Origin: Escherichia coli
GTDB taxonomy: Bacteria > Pseudomonadota > Gammaproteobacteria > Enterobacterales > Enterobacteriaceae
DNA: 64,000 bases
Strand: one strand, 5' to 3'
Assembly (NCBI RefSeq): GCF_030013205.1
Contig: NZ_CP122648.1
In this document: piece by piece, positions 8,508 through 8,909 of the stretch
How the letters are laid out: each line of letters starts with the position of its first letter
Position numbering within the stretch: position 1 is the first letter of the stretch
The notes under the pieces: model-generated
Seen by the model: the letters and a program-made list of their open reading frames with translations, nothing else
Told to the model about the DNA's origin: nothing
Database searches by the model: none
Translations under genes and position numbers: made by a program

Positions 8508-8909
8508 AAAGTGGGTAGCAAAAGTGGGGAGAGTGAGCAATGAGAGCCAAAGAAGCTATTTTTCCCCACTTTTAAACCTCTATATATACGCAAAAGTGGG
8601 GAGTGAAAAATTCAAAATAAAACAATGAATTATCAACTCGTGGAATCCCAATTTTTGGCGTGGTGAGAAATTGAAAAAGTGGGTAATAAAAATGGGTAGT
8701 GATGGGTAAATGAAAACTATGTGATGAAAGCAATAGGAAGATTAAAAAACAATCAATGCAATGTATTAACTAAAAATTAACTATTTACCCCACTTTTGCG
8801 TATATATAGAGGTTTAAAAGTGGGGGCTTAAAAATATATTTAAAATCATATTGTTATTAACTTCATAAATTCCCACCGGACAACGAGTGGGGAATTAAAA
8901 AAATTAGGA
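8508..8909. repeat. Putative island replication origin: AT-rich region with iterons (AAAAGTGGGGA family) and flanking 26-bp inverted repeats
   Basis: At least 8 copies of aaaagtggg(g/t)a or its complement; inverted pair acctctatatatacgcaaaagtgggg (~8575-8602) and ccccacttttgcgtatatatagaggt (~8787-8812). Confidence 0.55.

What the first reader, a model, noticed from the sequence alone, without database searches (positions are those of the whole stretch)
8508..8909. Iteron-rich AT-rich origin bracketed by a 26-bp inverted repeat, directly after the helicase gene
At least eight copies of AAAAGTGGG(G/T)A in both orientations surround an AT-rich core, and the whole is bracketed by acctctatatatacgcaaaagtgggg and its reverse complement about 180 bp apart. 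This is the architecture of a rep-ori module and supports autonomous replication of the excised island.
Basis: partly seen in the sequence, partly recalled or inferred. Interest (0 to 1): 0.5.

Follow-up and report, generated by a model that had tools for sequence, protein, structure and literature searches.

The report
Replication origin of a phage satellite
The repeat-rich, AT-rich stretch right after the helicase gene is very probably the replication origin of a phage-satellite island (PICI) in the E. coli chromosome, a known kind of origin, and relatives suggest that one amino acid of the helicase sets which repeat it reads.

Summary
Eight of the nine window matches to AAAAGTGGGKA lie in 8507-8826, against about 2 expected in 64 kb. 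GC falls to 26-33%. The inverted repeat is 38 nt and perfect, not 26 nt.

The region is the gap between a RepA-family helicase gene and the next gene. It sits in a ~14.5-kb island (int, alpA, icd-like, DUF4222, repA, ProQ, PerC) inserted in yifB. This is the layout of Gram-negative PICIs, whose origins lie directly 3' of rep as iteron sets flanking AT-rich DNA. Replication was shown experimentally only for EcCICFT073, which has a different Rep.

The window's helicase is 77% identical to that of EcCI042, whose origin carries AAAAGTGAGG iterons.

Across about 80 related loci the iteron core tracks one residue just before the predicted recognition helix of the helicase's C-terminal winged-helix domain:
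- Asn goes with GTGAG.
- His goes with GTGGG (the window has His446).
- Lys goes with TGGGGG.
- Ser goes with GTGCGG.

The conserved core is about 200 bp (8505-8708). 8709-8909 is a lineage-specific extension.

Verdict: a new member of a known kind. Interest is modest, apart from the apparent one-residue recognition code.

The parts
2299..2357 (+). Left island boundary (attL-like copy of a 59-nt imperfect direct repeat)
   Evidence: Pairs with 16779-16837 at 78% identity. Its GGTGTAGTnAnTGGTGTAGT core resembles the att core listed for EcCIDI14. The island interrupts yifB.
7095..8507 (+). repA: 470-aa RepA-family (AAA_25, RecA-fold) helicase, the proposed initiator-helicase
   Evidence: Pfam AAA_25 7.7e-44 over residues 150-319. 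phrog_2850 2e-220. 77% identical to the EcCI042 helicase. Closest solved sequence is RSF1010 RepA 1g8y, E 0.032. The N-terminal ~125 aa are 49% identical to the EcCICFT073 Pri-Rep N-terminus.
8307..8504 (+). Coding region for the C-terminal winged-helix domain (residues ~405-470), the proposed origin-binding domain
   Evidence: AF2 model of residues 391-470 has pLDDT 84 and pTM 0.72, with three helices and a beta-hairpin. All top Foldseek PDB hits are winged-helix DNA-binding domains, probability up to 0.99, but E-values are only 0.05-0.3.
8430..8432 (+). Codon 446 (CAC, His), the proposed specificity residue at the N-cap of the recognition helix
   Evidence: His goes with GTGGG and Asn with GTGAG in 36 of 36 classifiable loci. 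It is the only separating column in the last 78 aa of 13 Escherichia/Salmonella proteins. CAC versus AAC is one of only two differences in the last 120 nt between L002 and L003/L006.
8507..8530 (+). Iterons 1 and 2 (direct, 13-bp spacing); the first overlaps the repA stop codon
   Evidence: Direct iterons at +1..+26 after the stop are conserved across the family.
8563..8602 (.). Module A: inverted iteron pair (8563-8573 minus, 8592-8602 plus) around an 18-bp spacer AAACCTCTATATATACGC. Proposed nucleation and first melting site.
   Evidence: An equivalent perfect inverted pair lies at +40..+63 in nearly all related loci. A TATATA-type centre is present in 55 of 64 spacers against 2% by chance.
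8603..8674 (.). AT-rich spacer of the conserved core, the candidate DNA-unwinding element
   Evidence: GC ~0.33. Low-stability 30-mers at 8605-8639. Corresponds to the +90..+140 AT-rich gap in relatives.
8675..8708 (+). Iterons 5-7 (direct: AAAAGTGGGTA, AAAAATGGGTA, AGTGATGGGTA), the right set of the conserved core
   Evidence: They align with three GTGAG iterons in L004. Relatives have 2-4 direct iterons at +135..+200.
8787..8826 (.). Module B: second inverted iteron pair with an 18-bp spacer, an exact reverse-complement copy of module A. Together they form the 38-nt perfect inverted repeat.
   Evidence: Present in the E. coli relatives L002-L007 but not in EcCI042, Salmonella or more distant loci.
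8827..8869 (.). Extremely AT-rich, least stable duplex of the region. Holds weak sigma-70-like hexamers. Nearly invariant among E. coli relatives.
   Evidence: 30-mer dG -27.3 to -29.4 against a window mean of -41.1 (sd 3.4). Promoter-like site 8813-8840, but such sites are not enriched. Invariant columns in A1.
8870..8893 (.). Third pair of inverted iteron half-sites (TTCCCAC ... GTGGGGAA), just upstream of the ribosome-binding site of the next gene. Possible RepA operator.
   Evidence: It switches to TTCTCAC...GTGAGGAA in GTGAG-type relatives, but is also GTGAG-type in L002, whose other iterons are GTGGGG.
8910..9692 (+). Downstream gene (260 aa, unknown function). Not part of the origin and absent from many related islands.
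   Evidence: No Pfam or NCBIfam match. phrog_9576, unknown function. Deleted in L002, L006, L091 and L092.
16779..16837 (+). Right island boundary (attR-like copy)

Best explanation
Window 8505-8909 is the vegetative replication origin of a ~14.5-kb PICI-type phage satellite inserted in yifB.

Proposed mechanism (inferred, not shown):
1. After induction the island excises and the unidirectional alpA-driven operon produces the 470-aa RepA-family helicase.
2. The helicase's C-terminal winged-helix domain reads the iterons (core GTGGG, full form AAAAGTGGGGA). His446 at the start of the recognition helix contacts the fourth base of the core.
3. Binding to the direct iterons on both sides, and to the head-to-head pair around the TATATATA spacer, concentrates helicase subunits.
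4. The helicase then assembles around, and melts, the adjacent AT-rich DNA. The spacer at 8574-8591 and/or 8603-8674 are the candidates.
5. The helicase therefore loads itself, without DnaA or a separate loader, as SaPI Rep proteins and P4 alpha do.

The conserved functional core is 8505-8708. 8709-8909 is a lineage-specific extension. It holds a second inverted module, the most unstable DNA of the region and a third half-site pair. It probably adds a second unwinding or loading region, couples RepA binding to expression of the downstream genes, or both.
For: Context:
- The island has int, AlpA (Pfam PF05930, 3.4e-18), an Ant-like protein, an icd-like gene, DUF4222, repA, ProQ/FinO and PerC, all on one strand inside yifB.
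- This is the same order as EcCICFT073 and EcCI042.

Literature:
- Gram-negative PICI origins lie immediately 3' of rep, with two iteron sets flanking AT-rich DNA. Pri-rep-ori of EcCICFT073 maintains a thermosensitive plasmid (PMC6092414).
- SaPI Reps are self-loading helicases whose C-terminal winged-helix domain reads iterons just downstream of rep (PMC9371898).

Same rep-ori type as EcCI042:
- The helicases are 77% identical, and the EcCI042 origin has AAAAGTGAGG iterons in the same arrangement.

Conserved architecture:
- Downstream of homologous helicases (39-97% identity) in Escherichia, Salmonella, Xenorhabdus, Photorhabdus, Serratia, Kosakonia, Pectobacterium, Hafnia and Oceanospirillaceae, the pattern recurs. 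It is direct iterons at the stop codon, an inverted pair at +40..+63, an AT-rich gap, then direct iterons at +135..+200.
- A TATATA-type spacer centre is present in 55 of 64 loci against 2% by chance.

Specificity:
- The residue before the F-x-R-W motif predicts the iteron core. Asn gives GTGAG in 25 of 25 classifiable loci. His gives GTGGG in 11 of 11. Lys gives TGGGGG in 29 of 32. Ser gives GTGCGG in 5 of 5. Gly gives GTGCGC/G in 2 of 2.
- All eight loci fetched afterwards to test the rule fitted it; one of them (L096) fits only in its left iteron set.
- There are at least 7 Asn/His switches on a tree built from the helicase core.
- Residue 446 is the only discriminating column in the C-terminal 78 aa.
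- The L002 and L006 remnants differ only at this residue over 121 aa.

Structure:
- The C-terminal domain model is a winged helix (pLDDT 84), and residue 446 caps helix 3.

Other observations:
- The DUF4222 proteins of L093 (His type) and L094 (Asn type) read identical in the alignment, so DUF4222 is not the determinant.
- There are no DnaA boxes, GATC sites or IHF consensus in the region.
- There is no terminator between repA and the next gene.
Against: - No replication, binding or melting data exist for this element or, as far as I could find, for any RepA-type PICI origin. The only functional test used a different Rep and different iterons.
- The residue-iteron correlation could partly reflect physical linkage. 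Codon 446 lies 78 nt from the origin, so one recombination tract can carry both. The origin DNA between iterons also differs between types, which points to cassette exchange rather than point mutation.
- Mismatched or chimeric cases exist. L096 is an Asn-type protein with GTGGGG in its right iteron set. In L002 the third half-site pair is of the other type.
- The full-length AF2 model is poor (pLDDT 62), and its fold search was uninformative.
- Foldseek E-values for the C-terminal domain are not individually significant.
- No primase is identifiable in the island, so priming is unexplained.
Confidence: 0.85

Rival explanations
1. The repeats are operator sites that control transcription or translation of the downstream operon (260-aa gene, ProQ, PerC and so on). 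They would be bound by RepA or another regulator, and the region would not initiate replication.
For: A half-site pair lies directly upstream of the ribosome-binding site (8870-8893). Weak sigma-70-like hexamers overlap module B. The 8827-8909 stretch is nearly invariant among E. coli relatives. Iteron-plasmid Rep proteins are known to use inverted repeats for autoregulation (established knowledge).
Against: The same iteron architecture follows the helicase gene regardless of what lies downstream: SSB, a CoiA-like gene, ProQ or nothing. Iterons begin at the stop codon, far from any downstream start. Promoter-like sites are not enriched, 3 found against 2.5 expected. Position and layout match experimentally supported PICI and SaPI origins. 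A regulatory role for the extension is compatible with the main explanation.
Confidence: 0.06
2. The region is an origin, but it is fired by something other than the adjacent helicase. Candidates are host DnaA/DnaB, the DUF4222 protein or a helper-phage initiator, with the helicase recruited secondarily.
For: No binding data exist. DUF4222 always precedes rep in these islands. RSF1010, which has the closest solved RepA, uses a separate initiator, RepC.
Against: No DnaA boxes are present. DUF4222 accompanies both Rep types and reads identical in the alignment between the GTGGG-type L093 and the GTGAG-type L094. The iteron type tracks a residue in the helicase's own winged-helix domain.
Confidence: 0.05
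3. The 262-bp segment bracketed by 38-nt perfect inverted repeats is a miniature transposable element (MITE or foldback element) inserted next to the helicase gene.
For: Perfect 38-nt terminal inverted repeats 186 nt apart.
Against: Both arms occupy the same positions in orthologous origins of divergent islands, where they are not perfect copies. No target-site duplication flanks them...CTATTTTT | arm ... arm | GCTTAAAAA. The 601-bp query spanning the segment matches beside RepA-family helicase genes in all 20 listed E. coli records, with a median of one place per genome. The arm ends are simply iterons.
Confidence: 0.01
4. The repeats are a packaging (pac or cos) recognition site for a terminase.
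For: Satellites carry packaging signals. Repeats in AT-rich DNA resemble some terminase small-subunit binding regions.
Against: No lambda-type cosN is present in the island. A separate candidate exists elsewhere: a TerS-like ORF (15046-15573, phrog_57) is followed by six copies of AAAGTGTCAA. The iterons here track the helicase, not any packaging protein.
Confidence: 0.02

Closest known systems
EcCI042 rep-ori module (E. coli 042 PICI; one of four 'Pri-Rep' alleles in Fillol-Salom et al. 2018, PMC6092414)
   Same: The RepA-family helicase is 77% identical. The origin starts at the stop codon. Arrangement matches: two direct iterons, an inverted pair with an 18-bp TGTATA-centred spacer, an AT-rich gap and three direct iterons. 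The island gene order is also the same.
   Different: The iteron core is GTGAG with Asn at the key residue, against GTGGG with His here. The EcCI042 origin is about 200 bp and lacks the second inverted module and the AT-rich extension. It has a different integration site (tqsA) and different downstream genes (83-aa protein plus SSB).
EcCICFT073 pri-rep-ori (the experimentally tested Gram-negative PICI replicon)
   Same: Position immediately 3' of rep. Many short iterons in both orientations. Same island layout. The N-terminal ~125 aa of Rep is shared at 49% identity.
   Different: Rep is a 584-aa P4-family primase/helicase (TIGR01613), not a RecA-fold AAA_25 helicase. Its iterons are GGTAGAYA. 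Function was shown there and is only inferred here.
SaPI Rep-ori (SaPI1, SaPIbov1, SaPI5; self-loading helicases)
   Same: A helicase with a C-terminal winged-helix domain reads 5-6-nt iterons placed just downstream of its own gene. The centre is AT-rich, with iterons in opposite orientations on both sides. No separate loader is needed (PMC9371898).
   Different: SaPI Reps are SF3 or MCM-like AAA+ helicases of Gram-positive hosts. There is no sequence relationship to the RecA-fold RepA here.
Satellite phage P4 alpha protein with ori/crr
   Same: A satellite-encoded initiator-helicase with a C-terminal origin-binding domain recognises short repeated sites (own knowledge; cited in PMC6092414).
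   Different: P4 alpha is a primase fused to an SF3 helicase. It has two separated repeat regions (ori and crr), and its iterons are unrelated.
RSF1010/IncQ RepA helicase with RepC and oriV
   Same: Closest solved homologue of the ATPase core (1g8y, E 0.032). Both use an iteron plus AT-rich origin logic.
   Different: In RSF1010 the iterons are bound by a separate initiator, RepC, and priming is by RepB' at ssi sites (own knowledge). Here the helicase carries its own predicted winged-helix domain, and no RepC or RepB homologues are present in the island.

Membership tests
Gram-negative PICI (phage-inducible chromosomal island) | Integrase at the left end and specific att repeats flanking an island of about 7-15 kb | tested here: met
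   The tyrosine integrase ORF 2299-3609 matches phrog_1 at 8.5e-71. 59-nt imperfect direct repeats lie at 2299-2357 and 16779-16837, giving ~14.5 kb inside yifB.
Gram-negative PICI (phage-inducible chromosomal island) | AlpA-family regulator and unidirectional rightward gene order | tested here: met
   The 62-aa ORF 3977-4165 matches Pfam Phage_AlpA at 3.4e-18. All island CDS in the 100%-identical ETEC1748 copy are on the same strand.
Gram-negative PICI (phage-inducible chromosomal island) | Replication module (pri/rep) followed immediately by the origin | tested here: met
   The RepA-family helicase is 77% identical to the EcCI042 'Pri-Rep' allele. The iteron region starts at its stop codon.
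Gram-negative PICI (phage-inducible chromosomal island) | Absence of a full set of phage structural and lysis genes | tested here: inconclusive
   There is no capsid, portal or large terminase gene in the ORFs examined. However, the island carries a DUF2213/protease-like gene, a 679-aa protein with a tape-measure/transglycosylase-like C-terminus and a TerS-like ORF.
Gram-negative PICI (phage-inducible chromosomal island) | Induction, replication and packaging dependent on a helper phage | not testable with these tools
   Requires experiments.
PICI-type origin (ori) | [quoted passage not shown] | tested here: met
   Iterons at 8507-8602 and 8675-8708 flank the AT-rich 8603-8674. Further sets at 8787-8826 and 8870-8893 flank 8827-8869.
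PICI-type origin (ori) | Supports plasmid replication together with its cognate Rep | not testable with these tools
   Shown only for EcCICFT073.
Self-loading initiator-helicase (SaPI Rep / P4 alpha logic) | The helicase carries a C-terminal winged-helix origin-binding domain | tested here: met
   This is a prediction only. The AF2 model has pLDDT 84 and a three-helix plus beta-hairpin topology. Top fold matches are all winged-helix DNA binders.
Self-loading initiator-helicase (SaPI Rep / P4 alpha logic) | Rep specificity matches its own iterons | tested here: met
   This rests on comparative evidence only. The residue before F-x-R-W predicts the iteron core in 72 of 75 loci in the five residue classes with a consistent iteron core, with none contradicting. 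All eight prospective loci fitted, one only in its left iteron set.
Self-loading initiator-helicase (SaPI Rep / P4 alpha logic) | Origin binding and melting without DnaA or a loader | tested here: inconclusive
   No DnaA box, IHF consensus or GATC site in the region. The biochemistry is not testable here.
MITE / foldback transposable element | Terminal inverted repeats with target-site duplication and dispersed copies | tested here: not met
   Inverted repeats are present. There is no target-site duplication. The arms are positionally conserved in orthologous origins. All 20 listed E. coli matches to a 601-bp query spanning the segment lie beside RepA-family helicase genes.

The most novel reading that the evidence does not exclude
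A single residue at the N-cap of the winged-helix recognition helix of RepA-type satellite helicases acts as a simple recognition code for the fourth base of the GTGNG iteron core. His reads G, Asn reads A, Lys reads G as part of GGGGG, and Ser or Gly goes with C. If so, origin-specificity groups of these satellites can be predicted, and re-programmed, from one codon. The head-to-head iteron pair with its invariant TATATA centre would be the universal loading and melting site for a RecA-fold (SF4-like) self-loading helicase. That initiator class has been studied structurally only for SF3 and MCM-type Reps.
Probability: 0.55. Interest if true: 0.45.

Novelty: new member of a known kind. Interest (0 to 1): 0.3.

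Why it matters
The finding places this E. coli island among the PICI phage satellites and identifies its replicon. It also separates the conserved 200-bp core of the origin from lineage-specific additions.

The wider comparison gives a testable rule linking one amino acid of the satellite helicase to the iteron it reads. If confirmed, the rule would allow three things:
- prediction of which co-resident satellites can cross-activate each other's origins;
- a simple handle for engineering orthogonal rep-ori pairs;
- extension of the self-loading helicase concept from SF3/MCM Reps of staphylococcal islands to RecA-fold helicases of enterobacterial satellites.

As a genome feature in itself, it is an expected component of a known element.

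Tried and rejected
- **Rfam scan of 1-20000 (E up to 1):** nothing in the origin region.
- **Promoter and terminator scan of 8300-9100:** 3 promoter-like sites against 2.5 expected, and no terminator. It neither supports nor excludes a promoter.
- **DnaA box (up to 1 mismatch), GATC and IHF consensus:** none in 8480-8940.
- **Full-length AF2 model:** low confidence (pLDDT 62). Its Foldseek PDB search gave only generic Rossmann-type and RecA-like hits (Twinkle, Rad51, RadA) and was not useful.
- **PDB sequence searches:** only RSF1010 RepA at E 0.032 for the whole protein. The C-terminal domain profile gave only non-significant CRP/FNR-type hits.
- **NCBIfam:** only sub-threshold RadA hits for the helicase.
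- **Lambda-type cosN search:** no site in the island.
- **MITE interpretation:** rejected.
- **DUF4222 or the downstream 260-aa protein as iteron binder:** rejected. DUF4222 does not track iteron type, and the 260-aa gene is absent from many islands.
- **Co-resident islands avoiding cross-talk by differing in specificity:** not supported. Several Xenorhabdus genomes carry 2-3 loci of the same Asn/GTGAG type.
- **Figure 2a of PMC6092414:** it lists iteron sequences but could not be read because figures are not held. I therefore cannot say whether the EcCI042-type iteron is printed there.
- **Literature searches:** no paper describing RepA-type PICI origin specificity was found.
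Full report

Yes. AAAAGTGGGKA with up to one mismatch gives nine matches in the 64-kb window. Eight of them lie between 8507 and 8826. Dinucleotide-preserving shuffles of the whole window give a mean of 2.0 and never reach nine.

Five copies are exact: 8507+, 8520+, 8563-, 8592+ and 8675+. Three have one mismatch: 8688+, 8787- and 8816+. Three weaker copies lie at 8698-8708+, 8870-8880- and 8883-8893+.

Its arms are 8564-8601 and 8788-8825. They are 38 nt long, perfectly complementary, and 186 nt apart. Each arm is itself an inverted pair of iterons around an 18-bp spacer with a TATATATA centre.

GC content drops to 26-33% across 8550-8950, from about 50-58% in the flanks. 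The 30-mers at 8830-8869 are among the four least stable of 6397 sampled across the window.

The first iteron overlaps the helicase stop codon (TAA 8505-8507). The region ends at the ATG of the next ORF at 8910.

**2. Context**

The window is E. coli chromosome. The segment 8400-9000 is 100% identical to two porcine ETEC genomes and matches 544 of 5426 complete E. coli genomes at lower identity. In all 20 records listed, the match lies beside a gene annotated 'helicase RepA family protein'.

In ETEC1748 the surrounding island interrupts yifB, between the ilv operon and hdfR. The island carries these genes, all on one strand:
- a tyrosine integrase;
- an AlpA-family regulator (Pfam PF05930, 3.4e-18);
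- an Ant-like protein;
- an icd-like gene;
- DUF4222;
- the helicase;
- a 260-aa protein of unknown function;
- ProQ/FinO;
- PerC;
- a DUF2213 protein.

Imperfect 59-nt direct repeats at 2299-2357 and 16779-16837 bound about 14.5 kb. Their core resembles the att core listed for the PICI EcCIDI14.

This is the gene order of Gram-negative phage-inducible chromosomal islands, as seen in EcCICFT073 and EcCI042. Fillol-Salom et al. [quoted passage not shown] They also show that the EcCICFT073 pri-rep-ori segment maintains a thermosensitive plasmid only when both rep and ori are intact.

**3. Which rep-ori type is it?**

The 470-aa protein has a central AAA_25 RecA-fold ATPase domain (7.7e-44). The only solved relative detectable by sequence is RSF1010 RepA.

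It is not the Rep of EcCICFT073. That protein is a 584-aa P4-family primase/helicase (TIGR01613) with GGTAGAYA iterons. The two proteins share only an N-terminal domain of about 125 aa, at 49% identity.

It is the EcCI042 type. The helicases are 77% identical, and the EcCI042 origin carries AAAAGTGAGG iterons in the same arrangement. The window's element is therefore a further member of a rep-ori type already catalogued as one of four E. coli PICI 'Pri-Rep' alleles.

**4. Anatomy from comparison**

I collected 80 loci from one-genome-per-species contigs. I added six E. coli relatives, EcCI042, and eight loci fetched by exact protein. Wherever an intact helicase homologue (39-97% identity) is followed by enough sequence, the downstream DNA shows the same plan:
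- two or three direct iterons beginning at the stop codon;
- a perfect head-to-head iteron pair at +40 to +63, separated by 14-26 bp;
- an AT-rich gap of about 50-70 bp;
- two to four direct iterons at about +135 to +200.

The spacer of the head-to-head pair contains a TATATA or TGTATA-type centre in 55 of 64 loci. The chance rate is 2%. This holds whatever the iteron sequence is.

In the window this conserved core is 8505-8708. The rest, 8709-8909, is found only in a subgroup of E. coli islands. It holds three features:
- a second head-to-head module (8787-8826);
- the extremely AT-rich 8827-8869;
- a third pair of half-sites (8870-8893) abutting the ribosome-binding site of the next gene.

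In relatives the two head-to-head modules have related but different spacers. In the window, and in the few near-identical genomes, the left spacer is an exact reverse complement of the right one. The striking 38-nt perfect repeat is therefore a recent homogenisation and not a family feature.

**5. Who reads the iterons?**

An AF2 model of residues 391-470, built on 35 diverse sequences, is confident (pLDDT 84, pTM 0.72). It has the winged-helix topology: three helices followed by a beta-hairpin. All its best PDB fold matches are winged-helix DNA-binding domains. These include IclR, HrcA, ArsR, Fur, LexA, DtxR and ORC/MCM winged-helix domains. Probabilities reach 0.99, but E-values are only 0.05-0.3, as expected for a domain this small.

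Helix 3 begins right after residue 446, inside the conserved motif K-x-F-x-R-W. Across the loci, the residue at position x predicts the repeated core downstream:

| Residue before F-x-R-W | Iteron core | Loci fitting |
|---|---|---|
| Asn | GTGAG | 25 of 25 classifiable |
| His | GTGGG | 11 of 11 classifiable |
| Lys | TGGGGG | 29 of 32 |
| Ser | GTGCGG | 5 of 5 |
| Gly | GTGCGC/G | 2 of 2 |

I then fetched eight further loci chosen only by their protein motif:
- His type, all GTGGG as predicted: L091, L093, L095, L097.
- Asn type, GTGAG as predicted: L092, L094, L096.
- Gly type, GTGCGC/G as predicted: L098.

L096 is chimeric. Its left iteron set is GTGAGG but its right set is GTGGGG.

Further points:
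- On a neighbour-joining tree built from the helicase core alone, Asn and His interchange at least seven times.
- Among 13 Escherichia and Salmonella proteins, residue 446 is the only column of the last 78 residues that separates GTGGG-type from GTGAG-type origins.
- The RepA remnants of L002 (GTGGGG iterons) and L006 (GTGAGG iterons) are identical over their last 121 residues except for His versus Asn.
- Over the last 120 nt, L002 differs from L003 and L006 only at that codon (CAC versus AAC) and at one synonymous site.
- The pairings Asn with adenine and His or Lys with guanine agree with the usual amino-acid/base preferences in protein-DNA complexes (established knowledge).
- DUF4222, the other gene always next to rep, reads identical in the alignment between the His-type L093 and the Asn-type L094, and it also accompanies the unrelated CFT073 Rep. 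It is not the specificity factor.

**6. Mechanism proposed**

Shown:
- the sequence architecture and its conservation;
- the domain prediction;
- the residue-iteron correlation.

Inferred:
- The helicase binds the iterons through its winged-helix domains.
- Subunits accumulate on the direct repeats and on the head-to-head pair.
- The TA-rich spacer and the neighbouring AT-rich DNA melt.
- The helicase loads itself.

This is the logic established for SaPI Reps, which are self-loading helicases with a C-terminal winged-helix domain that reads iterons downstream of rep (PMC9371898). It is also the logic of P4 alpha.

The region has no DnaA box, IHF consensus or GATC site, which fits host-initiator independence. 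No terminator separates repA from the downstream genes, so the origin is probably transcribed as part of the AlpA-dependent operon.

The extension may provide a second unwinding or loading region, let RepA modulate downstream gene expression, or both. I cannot distinguish these possibilities.

**7. Caveats**

- No experiment exists for this element or, as far as I could find, for any RepA-type PICI origin.
- The residue-iteron correlation is partly confounded by linkage. The codon is 78 nt from the origin, and the DNA between iterons also differs between types. Exchange of a combined C-terminus-plus-ori cassette is therefore likely.
- Chimeric arrangements exist (L096, and the third half-site pair of L002). 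They show that matching is not absolute.
- The island encodes no recognisable primase. The role of the N-terminal domain shared by both Rep types is unknown.

**8. Rivals**

- A purely regulatory operator region is unlikely. The architecture follows the helicase whatever gene comes next, and the iterons start at the stop codon.
- A MITE is excluded by positional conservation, the lack of a target-site duplication, and matches that lie beside RepA-family helicase genes in every listed record.
- A packaging site is unlikely. There is no cosN, and a better candidate lies elsewhere: a TerS-like ORF followed by six AAAGTGTCAA repeats at 15580-15835.

**9. Verdict**

This is the replication origin of a PICI-type satellite, a new member of a known kind. 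The comparative by-product is an apparent one-residue recognition code and a universal TATATA-centred head-to-head iteron module for RecA-fold satellite helicases. It is the only part that goes beyond what is described, and it needs the simple swap experiments listed above.

Noticed in passing
window 15580-15835: Six exact copies of AAAGTGTCAA lie within 256 bp, five on the plus strand and one inverted at 15608-15617. There is only one other match (one mismatch) in the 64 kb. They directly follow a 175-aa ORF (15046-15573) whose N-terminus matches the terminase small subunit family phrog_57. This is possibly the island's TerS-binding or packaging site. The motif shares AAAGTG with the origin iteron.
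   Followed up: partly
window 2299-2357 and 16779-16837: A 59-nt imperfect direct repeat (78% identity) bounds the island inside yifB. Its GGTGTAGTnAnTGGTGTAGT core resembles the att core listed for EcCIDI14 in Table S1 of PMC6092414. yifB itself is not among the att genes listed there.
   Followed up: partly
window 5018-5887: About 870 bp between the Ant-like gene and the icd-like gene have no annotated gene in the identical ETEC1748 copy. The mechanical ORF 5011-6252 looks non-coding in its first two thirds. Rfam finds nothing there.
   Followed up: no
L002 2201-3034 and L006 2246-3033: In two E. coli islands the RepA gene is reduced to a C-terminal remnant that still encodes the winged-helix domain, while the iteron origin is retained. 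L002 has a P4-type primase-family Rep inserted upstream, so that island may carry two origins or a decaying one.
   Followed up: partly
L096 2895-3140 (E. albertii): This origin is chimeric. The left iterons are GTGAGG, matching the Asn-type helicase. The right direct set is GTGGGG. This suggests recombination inside the origin between specificity types.
   Followed up: no
window 7095-7470 (RepA residues 1-125); L008 5242-5620: The N-terminal alpha/beta domain of the RepA-type helicase is 49% identical to the N-terminus of the otherwise unrelated P4-type Pri-Rep of EcCICFT073. Both are always preceded by a DUF4222 gene whose stop overlaps the rep start. A shared module of unknown role may therefore partner with DUF4222.
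   Followed up: no
window 7611-7634 (RepA residues 173-180): The Walker A-like motif reads GASGSYKS, with Tyr where the canonical G-K-[ST] has Gly. All residues of the motif except Ala174 are invariant across the 18 aligned homologues.
   Followed up: no
window 12955-14994: The satellite island carries a 679-aa ORF. Its C-terminal ~130 residues match tape-measure, transglycosylase and endolysin PHROG families (phrog_7694 full length; phrog_2276 and phrog_873 C-terminal). It is absent from the otherwise near-identical ETEC1748 island, which is about 2.8 kb shorter.
   Followed up: no
window 1461-1750 (minus strand): A strong Rfam match to Rev39_5p_UTR (157 bits, E 4e-48) lies in the ilv leader region just outside the island.
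   Followed up: no
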